Made by a program: the position numbers and the translations under genes
From: the human T2T-CHM13v2.0 reference genome, Homo sapiens
Reading direction: 5' to 3' (one strand)
DNA length: 64,000 bases
Assembly (NCBI RefSeq): GCF_009914755.1
Contig: NC_060939.1
Part shown: positions 6,910-42,294 of the stretch, piece by piece
Position numbering within the stretch: position 1 is the stretch's first letter
How the letters are laid out: each line of letters starts with the position of its first letter
The notes under the pieces: model-generated
Told to the model about the DNA's origin: nothing
What the model saw: the letters and a program-made list of their open reading frames with translations, nothing else
The model's database searches: none

Positions 6910-9900
6910 TTTTAAATTTACTATTATTTATTATTACTTTATTTATATTTTTTCTTTTTTATTGATACATAATAGTTGTACATATTTATAGGGTACATGT
7001 GATTATTTTGATACATGCAGACAACGTGTAATGATGTAATCAGGGTAATTAGGATTTCTGTCATTCAAACATTGATTATTTCTTTATCTTGGGAACATTT
7101 CAAATCTTCTCTTCTAGCTACTTTAAAATAAACAATAAATCATTGTTAACTACAGTCACCCTACTGTGCTATCAAATACTAGAACTTATTTCTTCTATTC
7201 AACTGTATATTTGTACCTATTAACCAACATCTCTTCATCTCCCTGCTTCCCAGCCTCTGATAACTATCATTCTACTCCCTGCCTCCATGAGATCAACTTT
7301 TTTAGCTCCCACATACGAGCAAGAACATGTGGTATTTGTCTTTCTGTGCCTGGCTTGTTTCACTTAACATAAGGACCCCCAGTTCTACCCATGTTCCTGC
7401 AAGTGACAGAATTTCATTCCTTTTATTGAATGAATAATATTCCATTGTGAATATATACCACATTTTCTTTGTCTATTATATATTGATAGACACTTGATTT
7501 TATATCTTGCCTATTGTGAATAGTGCTACAATAAATATGGGGGTGCCAAATATTCCTTCAATATACTAATTTCCTTTCCTTTTGATAAATACCCAGTAGT
7601 GGGGCTGCTGGATCATATGGTAGTTCTATTTGCAGTTTTCTGAGAAACCCCTTTACTAGTATTCACAGTGGCTGTACTAATTTACATTCCCATCAACGGT
7701 GTATAAGAGTTTCCTTTTCTCTGCATCCTTGCCATCTTTTGTTATTTTTTTATCTTTGGATAGTAGCCATTGTAACTGAGGTGAGATGATATCTCATTGC
7801 GGTTTCAATTTGCATTTCCCTAGTGATTTGTGATGTCAAGCATTTGTTCATATACTTGTTGGCCATTTGTATATCTTCTTTTGAGAAATGTGTATTCAGA
7901 TCCTTTGCTCACTTTTTAATGAAATTATTTGTTGGGTTTTTATTTATTTATTCACTTTTTGCTGTTGAGTTGTTTGAATTCCTTATGTAGTCTGGACATT
8001 AGTACTGTGTTGAATGAATAGTTTGCAAATTTTTTTTCCATCTTACAGGTTGTCTCTTCACTTTTTAATTGTTTTCTTTGCTGTGCAGAAGCTTTTCAGC
8101 TTGATGTAATCTCATTTGTCTATTTTTGCTCTGGTTGCCTATGCTTTTGCAGTCCTACAGAAAAAAATCTCGACCCAGACCAATGTCCTGGAGTATTTAC
8201 CCAATGTTTTCTTTAGTATTTTTATTATCAGATCTTAAATTTCAGCTTTCAATCCATTTTGATTTGATTTTTGGTGTGGTCTAGTTTTATTCTTCTGCAG
8301 GTGGGTATCAAGTTTTCCCAGCACCATTTATGGAAGAGCATGTCCTTTCCCCAGTGTATGTTCTAGGTGCCTTTGTCAAATGTCAGTTTTCTATAAATAC
8401 ATGGATTTATTTCTGAGTTCTCTATTCAGTGTATGTTGTAGGCACCCTTGTCAAATATCAGTTTCCTGTAAATACATGGATTTATTTCTGAGTTCTCTAT
8501 TCTGTTCTATTGGTCTATGCATCTTTTTATACTGTTTTGGTTACTATAGCTTTGTAATATATTTTGAAGTCAAATAACGTGATGCTCCTAACTTTGTTCT
8601 TTTTGCTCAGTATTGCTTTGGCTATTCAGGGACTTTTGTGGTTCCAGACAAATTTCAGGACAGTTTTTTTCTGTTTCTTTGAAGAATGTCTTTGCTATTT
8701 TGATAGAGATTGCACTGAATTTGTAGATTGCTTTGGGGAATATGGTCATTTGAACAATTTTAATTCTTCTGATCCATAAGCATCTAGTCTTTCCATTTGT
8801 TTGTATCCTCTTCCATTTCTTCAATCAGTGTTCTGTAGTTTTCCTTGTAGAGGTCTTTCACCTCCTTGCTTATATTTATTTCTAGGTATTTTACTTTTGC
8901 AGTTATTATAAATTGGACTTTTTTCTTGATTTCTTTTTCAGCTGGTTCATTATTGGTATACGGAAATCCTATTGCTTTTTGAATGTTGATTTTGTATACT
9001 GTAACTTTGCTAAATTTGTTTACCATTTCTAAGAGTTTTGGTGGAGTCTTTAGGTTTTCTATATTTAAGATAGTGTCATCTGCAAAGAGAGACAATTTGA
9101 CTTTCTCTTTTCTAATTTGGATGCCTTATATTTCTTTCTCTTGTCTGATTGCTCTGGTTAGGACTTCCGGTACTATGTTGAGCAGGAGTAGTAAAAGTGG
9201 GCATTCTCATCTTAAAAAAAAAAAAAAAAGACAAGCTCTTAGACAAAGCTCTTAGAAAAAAAGACTTTCAGCTTTGCCTCATTCAGTATGATTCTAGCTG
9301 TGGATTTTTCATACATGGTTTTCATAATGTTGAGGCATGCTCCTTCTATGCCTAATTTGTTGAGATTTTTTTAATCACAAAAAGATGTTGAATTTTATCA
9401 TATGATTTTTCTGCATCTATTGAGATGATCATATGGTTTTTGTCCCTCATTCTGTTGATGTGATGTATCACATTTATGGATTTGCATATGTTGAACCATC
9501 CTTGCATCCCTGGGATGAATTCCACTTGATCATAGTGTAATTATCTTTTTGATGGGTGTTGGATTCAGTTTGCTAGCATTTTGTTGAGGATTTTTGCATC
9601 AGGGATATTGGCCTGTAGTTTTCTTTTTTGTTGTCTTTTTGTCTGGTTTTAGTATTACAGTAGTACTGGCCTTGTAGAATGAGTGAGGAAGAACTCCCAC
9701 CTCTTCAATTTTTTGGAATAGTTTGAGAAGAATTGATATTAGTTCTTTGTAAGTTTGATAGAATTCAGCAGTAAAGCCATCTAGTCATGAGATTGGGAGA
9801 CTTTTATTACTAATTCAATCTTGTTACTGGTTCTTGGTCTGTTCAGGTTTTCTATTTCTTCCTGGCTCACTCTTTGGAGGTTGTATATGTTCAGCAATTT

Positions 9901-35306: not shown

Positions 35307-37679
35307 TCACTTAAACACCCTCTAGAATTCAGTGGGAGTCCAATCCATGGAACAGCTAGATGAGCCCAAGAGATACCCCTTCCAATCTCTTCACAATTCA
35401 GTCTTTAAATGCCTTTGAGGCTGCACCTAAGCCGGTGTGGAAGAGCATCATAATGATGTCTTCCAAAGGAAGGAAGAGTTATGGACCTATACCAGGGATT
35501 TGCAACCCCTGCACTGTCTTATTCACACTTCCTTTCCCTAGGCCAGGACTCAGTCCTATTTTAAGACAAATTCCTAATTAGGCTTCACACTGTCTCTATT
35601 GCTAACCTACAAAATGCCTTTGGGAATTATACAAGGTGTAATTCTTAAATAATAGAGTCAAGAAAAATATATATGGAATTAAAATAGCAAGGTTATTAAA
35701 AAATTTTCCTGCAGAAGTAGGAGGTATTCCTTTAGAAACATACAATTCATGCTCACCTTCCTTCACCTAAGAGCAATAACTCTCTTTCTGCAAAAATTAA
35801 ATGGGCATGGAGGAAAAATTAACCCTAAACTAATTCCAAATCTGGTTGGGATGTAGGGGGAGTCAAAGGAGTGGTCGTATCAGAGATAGTCGATTTTCAT
35901 TTCCAGAAACCCATTATAGACCACACAGCCATTAAAAAGTATAATTATGACAATTACACAATAAACACAGAATATGCCCAGAATATGCCAATATAAATGA
36001 TGACTGTTCTGTGATTAAATTTTGTGTGCACATGAGCAAACACTTGAACAAAGCATGGATGAATATAAACAGCTTGATTTGTGTAGCAGTGGTCAGAGCA
36101 CGGGTTAATTTTTTTTTTTTTTTGCAGTTTGGTTTCTATTAATGTTGTTCATACAACAAATAATTTGTAAAAAGCCATTAAGGTGCCTCGGTGACAATTG
36201 GAAAACCAATTATAAATTCCTGCACTTCTAAAATGAGACAGAACCAATGGTGCAGAGCTGCAGCATGGAGAAGCAAAGAGCCTCTGCATTAGAATTTTTT
36301 AATTTTTTGCCTGAATAAAAGGAAGGCTTGATTTAAAGAGAAAGGTCATTTTATCTGGGTGTAATTTATCTATGTTTTATTCTAAGAAAGTGGCCTATTT
36401 GCAAAAGCTCGCACAAGTAGTCTCTGAGATTCATCCCATGTAGTCACCACCATGGGGTCTTGTTAGAGACACTGACCTACTGACACAGTGCCCCACGTTT
36501 ACCCTGTTTGGTCACTACCTTGGAACAACCCATACCTCTCTGCAAGGCCCTTTTGCATATACTTCTCTTATACTGAAGGAGTCATATTATACTAACTGTT
36601 CCATCATTAGTGCTCTAGCAAAGCTGGATCAATCACTGGACCCCAGATAGAGCCCTAAGTGCTCTGAGATGAGAGGTCAGGACTCAGAGCCAGGGAGCAG
36701 ACATTTTGGTTGGCTCCACCCCTCCCCCAATGTGTAACAGCTTAGAGGTGCATCCTGATTGGTCTAAGTCAGTCGTGGTGCTCCCATCCTCCTTACCAAT
36801 GAATAGATCGAGACCCCAGGATGATATTTTTCAACATAAGGTTTTCCTATGTCCTCAGGATTGGTCCAGCTGGAGCCAATGAGACTCCAGAAAAGGTTGC
36901 TGGGGGTTCTTTCTTTGGATATTGCTACAACCACATGTGTGGTGCAGAACATCAGCACTCATTCTGTTGCTGGCCTGCAAAGAGCAGAGCCAAGAGGACT
37001 GCAGAGCAATAGAAGGTGTGCCGCTAGATTAAGTCAACCTCCACATCTCCCTACCTCTGGATCTCTAGTCTTGAGACCCTTCATGTTTATGCCAGTTTGA
37101 ATTTCAATCTTCTTTTGCATCCCAGTTGATGTTAGACCACATCCCTGACCTCTCTCCTGAGCACAACAGAGGAATCCAGCTGACACTAAAAGTTAAGGAG
37201 ACAGGCAGACAAAAGACCATCTCTAGAATCCTCTCACCCTCTTTATGCTCACTCATTTTCACTACCATCTCCTCCCCATTCATGTGCCTGGAATTTAAAT
37301 TCCAATGACAACAGAAATGAAATGGGCTATAGAGCTCATCTTCTTTAAACTTCTCATGATAGTTCTGAGGAAATTGAGATTCTGGGGGGAAGAAAGGGTA
37401 CTTACCAAATACAATTCAGAGGCAAAACTACATCCTTTAATGCCCAATGAAAATGTCTATTTCTTAGCAAAATTTTCCCCAGTAATCACACCCCTCCTGC
37501 ACTGCCCCAAGCAGAATTGGTTATTTCTTCTTCATCACCATCAATATATTTTGTACCCACCTCTATTAGAAACAGCCCCTATGTTGTTGCATAATTATTG
37601 GCTCCCACTAGACTGTGCACTTCTTGAAGACAGGGTGCCTGGTTTTAATAGGGGCTTGACTGTTAAGTGAATGGAGCAA

Positions 37680-37758
37680 CATCTTTATCAAACCCATTAA
37701 TTCCATCTTTGTCAAACTCATTAATTCCATCTTTGCTAAGCCCATTAATTCCAACTTT
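37680..37758. repeat. 24-bp tandem repeat x3.3
   Basis: CATCTTTATCAAACCCATTAATTC / CATCTTTGTCAAACTCATTAATTC / CATCTTTGCTAAGCCCATTAATTC / CAACTTT. Confidence 0.92.
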
Positions 37759-37792
37759 ATTCACATAGAATCTGTGATATTTCTAATTGAGG

Positions 37793-38400
37793 ACAGTAGA
37801 CAGAATTTCTAAAATGACCTCCCAAAGGTGTTTCACCCTAATCCCCTGGAATCTGTGACTAGAATGAGATATCACTCTTGTGGTTATGCTATGTCATGTG
37901 GTACAATTGAACTCAAAAGGGTGAGTTAACCAGTAACTTAGTGTAATGTTACATGAGCCCTTAAAAGTAGAGAACTTTCTCTGGCTGGGTGCATAAGAGG
38001 GAGGCAGAAGGGAGAGATTTGAGGAAGATTTGATGCCCTGTTGCAAAACAGAAGACACGAGCTAGGAAATGCAGGCAGCCTCTCAAAGGTGAGAACAAGT
38101 CCTGGCAAGCAGCCAGCAAGGACATGAGGATTTCAGTCCTACAACCACACAGAACTGAATTCTGCCAACAACCTGAATGACTTGAAAACAGATTTACTCC
38201 CAGAGCCTCCCAGAGCCCCAGCTGACAGACACCTTGATTTCAGCCTTGTGAGACTCTAAGCAGAGTACCTAGCCATGCCTGCCTCCACTTCTGACCTACA
38301 ACACTATAAAATAATAAATGGAAGTTTTGGAGTGACAAAAAAGTTGTTTTAAGTTGCTAAGTTTGTGGTAATTTGCTATGAAGCTAAGAAAACTAATACA
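37793..38400 (+). mobile_element. MLT1E-type MaLR LTR
   Basis: CAGTCCTACAACCAC..GAACTGAATTCTGCCAACAACCTGAATGA...GCTAAGTTTGTGGTAATTTG...AAACTAATACA. Confidence 0.85.
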
Positions 38401-39267
38401 GAGAGTTATTTGCGGAGAGAGTAGGGAAGCTTTGCTAAGCAAATTATTAGAGTAAACCAGCTTTCGATTCTGATGTTGACCTGCTTAGAGCTAACCAGTT
38501 TCCAAGATGTTTGTAGAAGTGACTTTGGAGATCATCTGACCCTGGGTAAACAGGCTGCATTTTAAGCCAACTCGAATCAATTGGTGTGATTACCAGGCAT
38601 GGACTGTTAAGAATTGTGAGGCCAAGCCTGGGTTCAGGGTAAAATAAATCCGTAATTGATTAGCAACACCTGCCATGAGCAGAGAACCTGGCGATGACAG
38701 CATGCTTGACAAACCCTTGCTATTCCTACTCTAGTCTGGCCTACTCATTTGGGAACAGTAGTCCCAGAGAAGGGGCAAAATTACATAGTCAATCAAGACT
38801 AGAACTAGGAATCAAAGCCTCCTAGCACACAAATATAATTTTCTTTGCACAGTGCAGTTTACTAAATTCAACAGAGCTAAAATATTAATCCTGTTCTAAT
38901 TCATACCTCAAGAGTCCCCCAGGGCCTGGCAGCAGCCCATGGCTCATATCATGAGCACTGAGGTCTTCCTGGGGACCATATTTATAAGATCCACCCTGAG
39001 GAGCTTACATCCCGGCAACCCACTCTCTGCTCAGAACCGGCCAGTGAGAGGAGGCCATCTCTTCCTTCTCCTTTCCCTCTCTTCTCCCAAGAAGCTAGGA
39101 ATAAGCCACAACTCTTGGATGAAGTGAGAAGACTGGGAACTGGACTTTGACTCATCAGGACACCAAGAAGAAATCAAGACACAAGGTGGAAGTCAGTGGA
39201 GAAGCAAAGAGGAAGCAAGCAGCTCACAGACCACATAGAACTCCTCAGGCCACCATGCTTACTGTTA

Positions 39268-40565
39268 CACACACCTTGACAGGCTGGCCCCACTCATTAC
39301 TGAGGTGAGGGCAAAGCTAAGGTCCTACTGGCAATGACTCACAGAAAAAGCTATAAATAGGAACATTTATGACCATATTTATACAATCAAAGTTGGTTCA
39401 ATGATAATGTATGGAAAAATAGAATCTTTGCTGAAGAGGAATTTTAACTCCATTTGGGTATATGTTCCCAAGTGGGAAAAAAAACCTGGGCACACAGCTT
39501 TAAGAAGTGCGCTGGCCTCTGGTAATTGCTCTAATTACCTGTGAGTTAATTAGAGACCATTACGTGTTCAGAAGTGAGATTTTCATCCTTCAAAATTTGC
39601 ATTTCCAGCGAGCAGCTCATTCTCTATGCATCATAAGGCGAGTGTTCCCTGCTGATTTCTTTTCCTCATATATAACCAGGCTCACTCTGCGACTGATATA
39701 ATCAGAAGTCCATTAGACAGGGCCCAAAAAAGCCAGGAAGAGGTAGCAGGCTTCTGGGGCAGACAGATGGGTCTGGAATCTGTCTAGCCCCAGAAGGACG
39801 TATTTGAAGAGAGACTGATAATTTGGACAGTTTTTTGCAGGGACTGCTTTTGAGTTTGCTCAGTCATAATGACAGACTTTCCAGGAGAAACCAAATACCA
39901 GACACCTCCCTGAGTAAAAAATTCTCATTGCCTGGGTCCTAATAAGAGTGCAGGAGAAGGCTTTCAGTGATTTGGGTGGGGCCTGCCGCTCTGATTCACA
40001 GTCATCTATGGGTTGACCCAAGGGCCAGGGCTGGGTGAATTTGAAGACTGTTATAATTTATTTTGCACACACCTTACAGGCCCCACCTGAACAACTGAAA
40101 GCCTTCCCCTGGACTCTTATTAGGGCCTAGACTATGACCATTTCTTACCCACTGAGGTATCTGATACTTGGATTCTCCTGGAAAGTCTGTGATTCTGAGC
40201 AAATTCAAAAGCAGTCCCCACAAGGAGCTGTCCAAGTTATCAGTCACAGGTAATTAGAGCAATTACCAGGGTCCAGCACACTCTTTAAGGCTGTGTGCCC
40301 AGGTTTTCTTTCTCTTGGGAACACATACCCAAATGGAATTAAAATTTCAACAAAGATTCTATTTTTCCATACATTATCATCGAACCAACTTTGGTTGTAT
40401 AAATGTGGTCATAAACATTCCTATTTACAGCCTTTTCTGTGAGTCATTGCCAGTAGGACCTTAGCTTTGCCCTTGGGTCAGTAATGAATGGGGCAGTCTG
40501 ACCCCACAATCATCTATGGGGTGACCCAAGGGCCAGAGCTGGGTAGATTCGAAGGCTGTTGTAAT
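39268..40565. repeat. Local duplication with internal inversion (L-X-R / L'-X(inverted, with deletion)-R')
   Basis: 39280-39544 is revcomp of ~40244-40500; 39813-39985 is revcomp of 40077-40245; ~39990-40057 is a direct repeat of ~40498-40565; CACACACCTT at 39268 and 40066. Confidence 0.92.
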
Positions 40566-40674
40566 GTTCTCAAAGGCATGGGGACTATTCATACTTTTAA
40601 ACTCAGTAACCCAACAGCAGGAAGCTTTTTAAACAAAAGGAAATCAGCCCAAATAATGAAAAAACTTTATGCAC

Positions 40675-41230
40675 TGTCTTAGCCTGGGCTGCCCAGAAAA
40701 CTGGGCTGAATTTGCAAATATTTATGTGCAATTACTTTATTAAAGGGTGTAATATCAGGGAAACAGACGAGAGGAAAAAGGCAAAGGAAGCAAGAAAGGA
40801 GGAGAACCAACATGGGGTGCCTTATTGAGCTCCCCATTGCTAGGTATTAAGTGAGACTGATTGCTTGATCTCACTAGACGGCCTCTCCAAGGCCATAGCA
40901 TGACTGTGACTTAAGGTGTCCATGGAAGGGTGGGAGTGTGAGGTGAAGACTTTATTCCATAGCTTCCGTCTCCCATTGGTCAAAGTTTTGCCCTATGAGG
41001 CATTAATTCCTTCATACTTCCAGGTTACACGTGTGTGGATGTTGAGAGGGTCCCACTGTGTCTCACACCCCAGATTCAACAAGGAACCCGGGAGCAGGAG
41101 GTGAAGTGCAATAGGCTGTGCTCCCGTGAAGTTGGACAGGGTCTATCTGGAGTGGCAGTTCAGGAGTAGATGCCCAAAAGCCATAGAGATGGGGAAGCTG
41201 CAAGGTCGTAAGAGGTCTGATACACACCTC
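40675..41230 (-). mobile_element. LTR33-like ERVL LTR
   Basis: TGTCTTAGCCTGGGCTGCCCAGAAAAC... is the reverse complement of the LTR33 3' end. Confidence 0.65.
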
Positions 41231-41289
41231 AGTGTGGCTGTGGCTTTTCACTGTGTCCATCTCAGCGTGGATTCCAGTGAGGAAGCCCA

Positions 41290-41480
41290 GGCGTGGCAGT
41301 TAAATCATCTTTCCTGTGAATCCTTACTCTGCCACTCACTAGCTGTAGGACTTAGGGCAAACTAACTCCTCTGCACCTAGATATCTGTGACTGCTGAATG
41401 AGAATAATACCTACCATAAGGAAATGTTTCAAGGTTTGAATGAGATAATCTGTGTAATGTATGGCCAAGAACACAAACTT
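41290..41480 (+). mobile_element. MIR
   Basis: TCTGCCACTCACTAGCTGT...GAGAATAATACCTACC. Confidence 0.65.
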
Positions 41481-41774
41481 AACAAAACCAAATTTCCCCC
41501 CCTATATAATAATAAATTGAAACAACATAAACGTCCAATTATTGAAAAATGGTTAAATAAACCACGCTACAACCAGTTATGGACCCCTGTGTATCCTTTA
41601 AAAATAATGATACTGAATAAGTGACAAAATTGAAAATTGCTTCTGATATTGAAAAAAAATGATACAAAATTGTATAGGTACAGTATGGGAGGAGAGTGTT
41701 GTAGCCAACATGAAATACCGTGTGCAAATGCCTAGGGATATGCACATGCATGACATTTCGGGGGAAAACACTAA

Positions 41775-42294
41775 GAATTGCTCCTGAATATTATTCACTT
41801 TTCTTTCTTGTTAACAGGACTCCAGATTTGTTCGGAGTGCTATCGTGCTCATCCTCAAGTGACAAATCATGATTTGTCTCAACCAATCTGGAAATTTTTT
41901 TTCTCTAAATTTCCAACCTCCCTTGCAGTTGGAGAAGGCCATACGATCTGTTTCTGTACAAAATAATCTAATAGGAAGTCTGCTACTTCCCATTCAAGGT
42001 CTAGTAGAGCTTTGCTTTGCTTTCATGATAAAAGGGGAAGTAACATGGCAGGCACTGTCCCTTCCTCTTTCTTTCCACTTTGGATGTAGATGTGAAGTCT
42101 GGAACTCTGGCAGCCATCTTATAACTATGAGGTAACCAGCATGAGGGAAAGGTCAAGAAATTCAGCTCTGTCATTTGTGAGCCACCGAATCAACATCAAA
42201 AACTACTTTCAGTCTCTTGTTACATATTTATTTGTTTAAACATCAATGGTCAGATTTTCTGTTACTTATCACCAAATACACACCTAACTGATAT
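41775..42294 (+). mobile_element. MLT1J-type MaLR LTR
   Basis: CTGGAACTCTGGCAGCCATCTT...TTTTCTGTTACTT...CCTAACTGATATA. Confidence 0.7.

What the first reader, a model, noticed from the sequence alone, without database searches (positions are those of the whole stretch)
39268..40565. Tandem duplication in which a cassette with terminal inverted repeats is flipped, so both orientations sit side by side
Seen in sequence: the order is L-X-R-L'-X(inv)-R'. L = CACACACCTT(G)ACAGG (39268 and 40066). X = 39280-39985, and its inverted copy is 40077-40500. R = TCTGA..CACA.TCATCTATGGG.TGACCCAAGGGCCAG.GCTGGGT...TAAT (~39990-40057 and ~40497-40565). The flanks L and R are direct repeats while X is inverted. 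X has imperfect terminal inverted repeats: it starts CAGGCTGGCCCCACTCATTACTGA and ends TCAGTGATTTGGGTGGGGCCTG (revcomp CAGGCCCCACCCAAATCACTGA). The inverted copy lacks 39545-39814, joined at a GA microhomology. By-eye identity is ~89% for the outer arm and ~83% for the inner arm, and I do not recognise X as a known repeat. Inference: either multi-step microhomology template switching (FoSTeS/MMBIR), or duplication followed by inversion between the TIRs, or an unrecognised TIR element. The result is a ~420-bp-arm quasi-palindrome that could support recurrent inversion, arm-to-arm conversion or long dsRNA.
Basis: partly seen in the sequence, partly recalled or inferred. Interest (0 to 1): 0.8.

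Follow-up and report, generated by a model that had tools for sequence, protein, structure and literature searches.

The report
Old tandem duplication with flipped core
A 0.8-kb stretch of unique human chr15 DNA was duplicated in tandem tens of millions of years ago and the core of one copy was flipped in place, leaving a decayed hairpin-shaped fossil of a known kind of complex rearrangement rather than a mobile element.

Summary
L (39268-39279 / 40066-40076) and R (core 39997-40057 / 40505-40565, 87%) are direct repeats. X (39280-39985) reappears inverted at 40077-40500: outer arm 88% over 265 nt, inner arm 82% over 173 nt. The inverted copy lacks 39545-39812, joined at GA.

X, the inverted copy, the 270-bp private piece, the R-L spacer and the left flank each match only this locus in the 3.1-Gb assembly. 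A control repeat gave 4428 candidates. No target-site duplication, coding signal or Rfam family was found.

The terminal inverted repeats are real but short (CAGGC, GGCCCCAC, ACTGA). They moved whole with the flipped segment, so the exchange used 5 nt or less, not a crossover inside a 22-nt repeat.

The missing 270 bp is a deletion whose left edge lies beside the loop of a 43-nt quasi-palindrome. Divergence is 59 of 481 sites, roughly 30-67 My.

Best reading: a neutral fossil of tandem duplication plus in-place inversion by microhomology-mediated template switching. One event or several cannot be told apart here. An ancient low-copy transposon origin of X is not excluded, because no Dfam search or outgroup genome was available. 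Modest interest.

The parts
39261..39267 (+). ACTGTTA, a 7-mer directly before L. It recurs at 40047-40053 near the end of R, 13 nt before L'. Candidate microhomology for the tandem duplication junction.
   Evidence: 4 forward and 3 reverse occurrences in 64 kb, two of them at these places. Its role is inferred.
39268..39279 (+). L, left direct-repeat flank of copy 1 (CACACACCTTGA)
   Evidence: the 10-mer is found only here and at 40066 in the window.
39280..39985 (+). X, the 706-bp core of copy 1, unique in the genome
   Evidence: arms; 1 first-look candidate in 3.1 Gb, the locus itself.
39280..39303 (+). Left terminal inverted repeat of X (CAGGC-TGG-CCCCAC...ACTGA)
   Evidence: 0.56% of random placements score as high; GGCCCCAC only at X ends.
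39280..39544 (+). Outer arm of copy 1, partner 40244-40500
   Evidence: 87.9% over 265 nt. Gapless core has 23 mismatches in 251 sites.
39522..39563 (.). 43-nt quasi-palindrome rich in TAATT. Its loop abuts the left breakpoint of the deletion seen in copy 2.
   Evidence: self-inverted hit, 79%, E 0.008; DNA fold -7.0 kcal/mol vs -2.25 +/- 1.36, z -3.5, 0 of 200 shuffles as good.
39545..39812 (+). Segment present only in copy 1; deleted from copy 2 at a GA microhomology
   Evidence: no other copy in the genome, so it is not a recognisable inserted repeat. The palindrome spans the junction only in copy 1.
39813..39985 (+). Inner arm of copy 1, partner 40077-40245
   Evidence: 81.5% over 173 nt; 28 mismatches in 169 sites.
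39964..39985 (-). Right terminal inverted repeat of X
39986..40057 (+). R, right direct-repeat flank of copy 1 (secure core 39997-40057)
   Evidence: 61 nt, 87% to 40505-40565; the spacer matches only itself and R' in the genome.
40058..40065 (+). 8-nt filler (TTATTTTG) at the R|L' duplication junction
   Evidence: no longer template for it within 37000-43000.
40066..40076 (+). L', left flank of copy 2, direct
40077..40501 (-). X', the inverted and internally deleted copy of X. The right-type repeat is now on the left and the left-type repeat on the right.
40469..40480 (+). 12-mer GCCCTTGGGTCA inside X', the perfect inverted complement of 40522-40533 in R' (and of 40014-40025 in R). It differs from copy 1 by the only 4-nt mismatch block in the arms (39304-39307).
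   Evidence: Read as a short template-switch mutation after the inversion (inferred).
40502..40565 (+). R', right flank of copy 2, direct (core 40505-40565)

Best explanation
This is a fixed, ancient and probably neutral fossil of a local complex rearrangement in unique intergenic DNA. A unit of about 0.8 kb (L-X-R, 39268 to about 40065) was duplicated in tandem. In one copy the 706-bp core X was inverted in place, exactly between two short inverted repeats at its ends. The exchange used only the terminal 5 nt (CAGGC/GCCTG) or less, which points to replication template switching or microhomology-mediated break-induced replication, not homologous crossover. The flip created a near-perfect palindrome with 706-bp arms and a 91-bp spacer. 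One arm then lost 268-270 bp at a GA microhomology next to a small hairpin-forming quasi-palindrome, either later or in the same event. The copies then decayed to 82-88% identity, with at least one later short template-switch mutation. Shown: the anatomy, the uniqueness in the genome, the position of the breakpoints, and the polarity of the deletion. Inferred: the mechanism, the order of events, which orientation is ancestral, and neutrality.
For: Anatomy and statistics come (E 1e-77, 8e-40 and 4e-13 within the window). The L 10-mer occurs only twice in 64 kb. Uniqueness: X+L+R, copy 2, the 270-bp piece, the left flank and the R-L spacer each found only this locus in 3.1 Gb. A masked control repeat gave 4428 first-look candidates, with 39 non-self matches at 80-84% among the 40 scored. 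The first look picked the 61-nt, 87% R' as a candidate of its own. The fully conserved 24-mer at 39521-39544 has only the 2 local copies plus one 3-mismatch hit in the genome. Breakpoints: copy 2 starts with the right-type repeat (no TGG) and ends with the left-type repeat (with CTG), so whole repeats were carried along. Deletion polarity: the quasi-palindrome 39522-39563 spans the junction in copy 1. Age: 59 mismatches in 481 gapless sites, JC 0.134. Literature: 59 of 59 human-chimp microinversions are flanked by inverted repeats of 3-75 nt, juxtaposed to the breakpoints with two exceptions, and the authors propose MMBIR (PMC8755829, passages read). Local duplications with inverted parts, and inversions next to or within deletions, are recurring classes in a survey of 166 rearrangements (PMC5829575, passages).
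Against: No outgroup genome was available. The ancestral orientation, the order of events, and one event versus several are all untested. Divergence is uneven: outer arm 23 of 251 against inner arm 28 of 169 (Fisher p 0.03; p 0.009 with wider alignments). A single simultaneous event does not predict this without later conversion or constraint. The right junction needs a further 4-8-nt loss or gain (CCGC or CCGCTCTG). The genome search reaches old repeats poorly: the right flank returned only 3 weak hits at 72-80%. An origin of X from an ancient, low-copy repeat family is therefore not excluded, and no Dfam or RepeatMasker search could be run.
Confidence: 0.72

Rival explanations
1. X is the relic of an ancient non-autonomous cut-and-paste (hAT-like) transposon. 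Its terminal inverted repeats are transposon ends. After the host duplication it was flipped either by its transposase (excision and re-ligation in place) or through those ends.
For: X is 706 bp and non-coding. It is bounded by an imperfect inverted repeat starting with CAG that is more than chance. The inverted segment coincides with the repeat ends to within about 5 nt. The genome search is weak for very old families. That hAT ends usually begin with CAG is recalled, not tested.
Against: No other copy of X or of its parts was found in 3.1 Gb. The 8-nt flanks match at 3 of 8 positions against 2 expected by chance, and there is no TA or TTAA flank (read). After the terminal CAGGC the repeat is no better than 14% of random placements. 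In-place flipping by a transposase is not a usual outcome (established knowledge).
Confidence: 0.12
2. A short L-R unit was duplicated first. The same element X then inserted independently into each copy at the same site, once in each orientation.
For: With X removed, the locus reads L-R-(8 nt)-L-R.
Against: This requires a strictly site-specific mobile element that nevertheless left no other copy in the genome. X-X divergence (9-17%) is in the same range as R-R' (13%). No target-site duplications are present.
Confidence: 0.02
3. The mirrored pair is kept by selection, either as a hairpin RNA source (ADAR or Dicer substrate) or as a duplicated regulatory module. This would explain the lower divergence of the outer arm. 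It concerns why the structure was retained, not how it arose, so it can hold alongside the best explanation.
For: As RNA, the inner 433 nt folds at -252.9 kcal/mol against -125.1 +/- 6.5 for shuffles (z -19.7, 0 of 100 shuffles as good). The outer arm is less diverged than the inner arm. It holds a 41-nt and a 26-nt perfectly shared tract, the latter a TAATT-rich palindrome.
Against: No gene or RefSeq functional element is annotated here (hub table). No Rfam family matches: the only hit is MIR5048 at 23.9 bits against a gathering score of 160. Any inverted repeat folds well. The divergence difference is modest, and gene conversion stopped by the 270-bp heterology would also explain it. Transcription, editing and conservation could not be tested.
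Confidence: 0.08
4. Assembly artefact or chance similarity.
For: None found.
Against: E-values fall to 1e-77 within the window. The copies differ at 12% of sites and by a 270-bp indel, which an assembly collapse or mis-join does not produce.
Confidence: 0.01

Closest known systems
In-place inversions flanked by short inverted repeats (microinversions between human and chimpanzee; PMC8755829, passages read)
   Same: A segment is reversed between retained flanks. Short, partly imperfect inverted repeats sit at the breakpoints. The favoured mechanism is template switching or MMBIR rather than crossover.
   Different: 706 bp here against 17-33 nt there. The inversion lies inside one copy of a tandem duplication. 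It is tens of millions of years old and is accompanied by a 270-bp deletion.
FoSTeS/MMBIR complex rearrangements with an inverted segment inside a copy-number gain (DUP-TRP/INV-DUP, PMC4352052, abstract start only; ODIRA inverted triplication, PMC10766186, abstract only)
   Same: Copy gain combined with an inverted segment. Junctions lie at short inverted repeats and microhomologies, and one junction carries a small insertion.
   Different: X has two copies, not three. The flanks L and R are direct. The scale is under 1 kb rather than tens of kb to Mb, and the structure is fixed and old rather than a disease allele.
Local rearrangement classes seen in long reads (PMC5829575, passages read): tandem multiplication, inverted tandem duplication, inversion next to or within a deletion, 'unique' patterns
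   Same: Small, local combinations of duplication, inversion and deletion.
   Different: None of the categories listed in the passages I read is exactly 'tandem duplication with only the core flipped'. The nearest are 'unique' or compound cases.
Non-autonomous hAT-type DNA transposons (MITE-like MER elements)
   Same: Size, non-coding content, and an imperfect terminal inverted repeat of about 22 nt beginning with CAG.
   Different: No target-site duplication and no other genomic copy was found. Match to a curated consensus could not be tested.
Short template-switch mutations / quasi-palindrome correction (PMC7954356, listing only; Loytynoja and Goldman 2017, cited in PMC8755829, not read)
   Same: The 4-nt mismatch block at 39304-39307 / 40473-40476 turns an 8-of-12 match into a perfect 12-nt inverted repeat with R', 41 nt away.
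   Different: This concerns only one secondary mutation inside the structure, not its origin.

Membership tests
Tandem duplication | Two adjacent copies of one unit, with the unit's ends in the same order and orientation | tested here: met
   L and R are direct in both units, and the units are 8 nt apart.
In-place inversion between short inverted repeats | Core reversed while both flanks keep their orientation | tested here: met
   X is inverted and L/R are direct.
In-place inversion between short inverted repeats | Inverted repeats juxtaposed to the breakpoints | tested here: met
   CAGGC/GCCTG lies at the breakpoints and GGCCCCAC lies 2-6 nt inside. 0.56% of random placements score as high.
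In-place inversion between short inverted repeats | Ancestral uninverted state shown by an outgroup | not testable with these tools
   No other eukaryotic genome is held. Copy 1 serves only as an internal reference.
Homologous (NAHR) inversion between inverted repeats | Crossover inside the repeats, leaving their outer parts in place | tested here: not met
   The repeat-specific differences (TGG indel and downstream sites) moved with the segment.
DUP-TRP/INV-DUP or ODIRA inverted triplication | Three copies, with the middle one inverted | tested here: not met
   X has only two copies in the window and in the genome.
Fold-back inverted duplication | The whole duplicated block, flanks included, is inverted | tested here: not met
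   L' and R' are direct.
Class II TIR transposon (hAT-like MITE) | Terminal inverted repeats | tested here: inconclusive
   They are present but short and imperfect. p is 0.006 overall and 0.14 once the terminal 5 nt are dropped.
Class II TIR transposon (hAT-like MITE) | Target-site duplication (8 bp for hAT, TA for Tc1/mariner) | tested here: not met
   The 8-nt flanks CACCTTGA and CCGCTCTG match at 3 of 8 positions, and there is no TA (read). Decay with age weakens this test.
Class II TIR transposon (hAT-like MITE) | Several dispersed copies in the genome | tested here: not met
   Each gave 1 candidate, the locus itself. The control repeat gave 4428 candidates. Reach below about 72% identity is poor.
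Class II TIR transposon (hAT-like MITE) | Match to a curated repeat consensus (Dfam/Repbase) | not testable with these tools
   No repeat library is on hand. The hub's list of the longest masked stretches does not include this region, but shorter masked stretches are not listed.
Known structured RNA or miRNA family (Rfam) | Score at or above the family's gathering threshold | tested here: not met
   The only match is MIR5048 at 23.9 bits against 160.

The most novel reading that the evidence does not exclude
The mirrored pair is not a passive fossil. The flip placed two copies of a TAATT-rich regulatory or RNA module head to head. The outer arm has been kept more similar by selection or by arm-to-arm conversion. 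If transcribed, the locus would yield a primate-lineage, non-Alu long hairpin RNA of about 430 paired nt, a substrate for ADAR or Dicer. Alternatively, X is the last surviving copy of an otherwise extinct TIR element that was flipped by its own transposase.
Probability: 0.07. Interest if true: 0.6.

Novelty: new member of a known kind. Interest (0 to 1): 0.3.

Why it matters
On its own it matters little. It is a clean, base-resolved fossil showing that kilobase-scale 'duplicate and flip the core' rearrangements occur at 5-nt inverted microhomologies in the human lineage. It suggests that the resulting long palindrome lost symmetry through a deletion next to a small hairpin. It also shows a later short template switch that mutated one arm further. 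Such loci could calibrate detectors of template-switch events above the scale of tens of nucleotides. If primate outgroups hold an intermediate state, they could separate one-step from multi-step origins. It would gain interest only if the hairpin proves to be transcribed or the outer arm proves to be constrained.

Tried and rejected
(1) Multi-copy repeat or internally palindromic TE consensus. Rejected as far as it could be tested: own-genome DNA searches with X+L+R, the 270-bp piece, copy 2, the left flank and the R-L spacer found only this locus. The positive control gave 4428 candidates. The conserved 24-mer with up to 3 mismatches gave the 2 local copies and one chance-level hit.

(2) A profile search of the genome was not possible. 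Model R1 was not accepted by the genome search, so no profile-level search for old relatives was made.

(3) A third partial copy or further homology in the flanks: none. Sensitive blastn (word 7, E up to 1) found only the known pairs, the local palindrome and three chance-level hits. Sequence upstream of L does not align with R.

(4) Coding potential: 18 stop-to-stop frames of 50 aa or more overlap 39100-40700, the longest 75 aa. Of these, 6 of the 18, chosen by eye among those overlapping the two units, were scanned against Pfam. None reached a cut-off; the best two had E 0.19.

(5) Rfam: nothing at gathering score.

(6) A templated source for the 8-nt junction filler: none nearby.

(7) Staggered-break inversion, fold-back duplication and inverted triplication: their predicted orientation of flanks or copy number does not fit (see the membership tests).

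Paper PMC1750909 is not held.

(9) No paper search by locus was made, so I make no claim that this locus is absent from print.

Full report
**1. Is it there?**

Yes. Reading 39100-40800, the repeat finder and two blastn runs against the whole 64-kb window give the same picture.

- Unit 1 is L (39268-39279), X (39280-39985) and R (39986 to about 40057).
- An 8-nt filler follows (40058-40065).
- Unit 2 is L' (40066-40076), X inverted (40077 to about 40501) and R' (to 40565).

The pairs found:

| Pair | Identity | Length | E-value | Orientation |
|---|---|---|---|---|
| 39280-39544 vs 40500-40244 (outer arm) | 87.9% | 265 nt | 1e-77 | inverted |
| 39813-39985 vs 40245-40077 (inner arm) | 81.5% | 173 nt | 8e-40 | inverted |
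| 39997-40057 vs 40505-40565 (R core) | 86.9% | 61 nt | 4e-13 | direct |

- The two arms abut in copy 2 with a 2-nt GA overlap, so 39545-39812 is missing there.
- The L 10-mer CACACACCTT occurs twice in the window and never on the other strand, at the two predicted places.
- No other part of the window resembles the unit.

**2. The terminal inverted repeats**

- The first and last 30 nt of X align as CAGGC, GGCCCCAC and ACTGA with a 3-4-nt offset.
- 0.56% of 20000 random placements at the same spacing score as well. With the terminal 5 nt removed, 14% do.
- GGCCCCAC occurs only three times in the window on both strands, all at X ends.
- So a short inverted repeat is really there, but it is not a strong 22-nt TIR.

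**3. Where the exchange happened**

- Copy 2 begins with the right-type repeat (CAGGC directly followed by CCCAC, no TGG).
- Copy 2 ends with the reverse complement of the left-type repeat, which keeps the extra CTG.
- The repeats therefore swapped places as wholes, and the exchange points lie in the outer 5 nt or outside.
- This excludes a crossover within the repeats. It fits joins made at microhomology.
- The right junction is untidy. Depending on the alignment, 4 nt (CCGC) or 8 nt (CCGCTCTG) of unit 1 have no partner in unit 2, with a CTG microhomology.

**4. Is X a repeat family?**

The whole 3.1-Gb assembly could be searched.

| Query | First-look candidates |
|---|---|
| Unit 1, L+X+R (39268-40065) | 1 (the locus itself) |
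| 270-bp private piece | 1 (the locus itself) |
| Copy 2 | 1 (the locus itself) |
| Left flank | 1 (the locus itself) |
| R-L spacer | 2 (itself and R') |
| Control: masked repeat 8010-8232 | 4428 |

- In the control, the 40 scored matches included 39 non-self matches at 80-84% identity.
- One search also shows that a 61-nt, 87% match is picked up as a candidate of its own.
- The 24-mer at 39521-39544, identical in both copies, has only those two copies plus one 3-mismatch hit on another chromosome. The reversed control pattern gave 0 hits.
- The limit of this test is reach. The right flank (40566-41300) returned only three weak hits at 72-80%, so very old families are detected poorly.
- The 8-nt flanks of X match at 3 of 8 positions (read).
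- No frame exceeds 75 aa. 6 of the 18 frames were scanned against Pfam and none reached a cut-off.
- Rfam gave only a sub-threshold hairpin match, 23.9 bits against 160.

**5. The 270 bp is a deletion in copy 2**

- 39522-39563 is a 43-nt quasi-palindrome.
- As DNA it folds at -7.0 kcal/mol against -2.25 +/- 1.36 for shuffles, and 0 of 200 shuffles do as well.
- Its loop lies next to the left breakpoint, 39544/39545.
- Copy 1 holds both arms of this small palindrome. Copy 2 holds only the left arm.
- An insertion would not be expected to complete a palindrome across its own junction.
- The piece has no other copy in the genome.
- It is established that long, nearly perfect palindromes are unstable and lose symmetry by deletion (recalled, not looked up). 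Right after the flip the arms would have been 706 bp with a 91-bp spacer, so a deletion in one arm is an expected sequel.

**6. Age and unevenness**

- Over gapless cores, mismatches are 23 of 251 (outer arm), 28 of 169 (inner arm) and 8 of 61 (R). The total is 59 of 481, or 12.3%, giving JC 0.134.
- With recalled neutral rates of 2.2e-9 and 1e-9 per site per year, this is about 30 and 67 My. It is a rough bracket only.
- The outer and inner arms differ at p 0.03, or p 0.009 with the wider alignments.
- CpG sites do not explain the difference: 2 and 0 mismatches fall at CpG.
- Possible causes are arm-to-arm conversion that went on longer in the longer arm and stopped at the 270-bp heterology, constraint on the outer arm, or chance. 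None could be tested.

**7. A later template switch**

- The only 4-nt mismatch block in the arms is 39304-39307 (GGTG) against CCCA in the reverse complement of copy 2.
- It turns an 8-of-12 match into a perfect 12-nt inverted repeat between 40469-40480 and 40522-40533 in R', 41 nt away.
- Only 176 of 63600 window positions have a perfect 12-nt inverted partner within 100 nt.
- No 7-9-mer template for the copy 1 state exists within 38800-40900.
- I read this as a short template-switch mutation in copy 2 after the flip. That reading is an inference and needs an outgroup.

**8. Mechanism**

Two histories fit.

- *Single event.* One replicative event with four switches could produce the structure:
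  1. End of R back to L, leaving an 8-nt filler.
  2. After L, onto the opposite strand at CAGGC.
  3. A skip at GA beside the small palindrome.
  4. Back to the first strand at CTG/GCCTG.
- *Stepwise.* The alternative is tandem duplication, then an in-place inversion at the short inverted repeats, then a deletion provoked by the palindrome.
- Published work supports the inversion step in both histories. All 59 human-chimp microinversions were flanked by inverted repeats of 3-75 nt juxtaposed to the breakpoints, and the authors argue for MMBIR (PMC8755829, passages).
- Small compound duplication, inversion and deletion patterns recur in long-read data (PMC5829575, passages).
- Inverted-triplication models (PMC10766186, abstract; PMC4352052, listing) do not fit, because X has two copies and the flanks are direct.

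**9. Consequences**

- If transcribed, the inner 433 nt would fold at -252.9 kcal/mol, z -19.7.
- There is no annotation of a transcript, and I could not test expression or editing.
- The longest exact tract shared by the arms is 41 nt. Present-day recombination between them is therefore unlikely. This rests on the recalled need for much longer identity in mammalian homologous recombination.

**10. Verdict**

It is a duplication with a flipped core made at microhomology. It is not a crossover inside the TIRs, and there is no evidence for a mobile element.
- It is a new example of a known kind, of modest interest, and would gain value only through comparative or transcript data.

Noticed in passing
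window 40469-40480 and 40522-40533 (also 40014-40025); copy 1 counterpart 39301-39312: A perfect 12-nt inverted repeat joins the outer end of the flipped copy to R'. It is created by the only 4-nt mismatch block between the arms. This is the signature of a short template-switch (quasi-palindrome correction) mutation after the inversion.
   Followed up: partly
window 39519-39563 and 40244-40269: A TAATT-rich quasi-palindrome. Its left half (26 nt, CTGGTAATTGCTCTAATTACCTGTGA) is identical in both copies, and its loop abuts the left breakpoint of the 270-bp deletion. The motifs look like homeodomain-type sites; that is recalled, not tested.
   Followed up: partly
window 39261-39267 and 40047-40053: The 7-mer ACTGTTA sits directly before L and again near the end of R, 13 nt before L'. 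It may be the microhomology of the tandem duplication. There are 7 occurrences in the window on both strands.
   Followed up: partly
window 39308-39348 / 40433-40473: A 41-nt tract is perfectly identical between arms that otherwise differ at about 9% of sites. This is either borderline chance or a trace of conversion or constraint.
   Followed up: no
window 40722-40872 and 40951-41033: The right flank has weak matches (72-80% identity, 69-151 nt) to three other chromosomes. These are probably fragments of old interspersed repeats; the family was not identified.
   Followed up: partly
window 39751-39760 and 39787-39796: A 10-nt perfect inverted repeat (CTTCTGGGGC / GCCCCAGAAG) with a 26-nt spacer lies inside the 270-bp piece found only in copy 1.
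   Followed up: no
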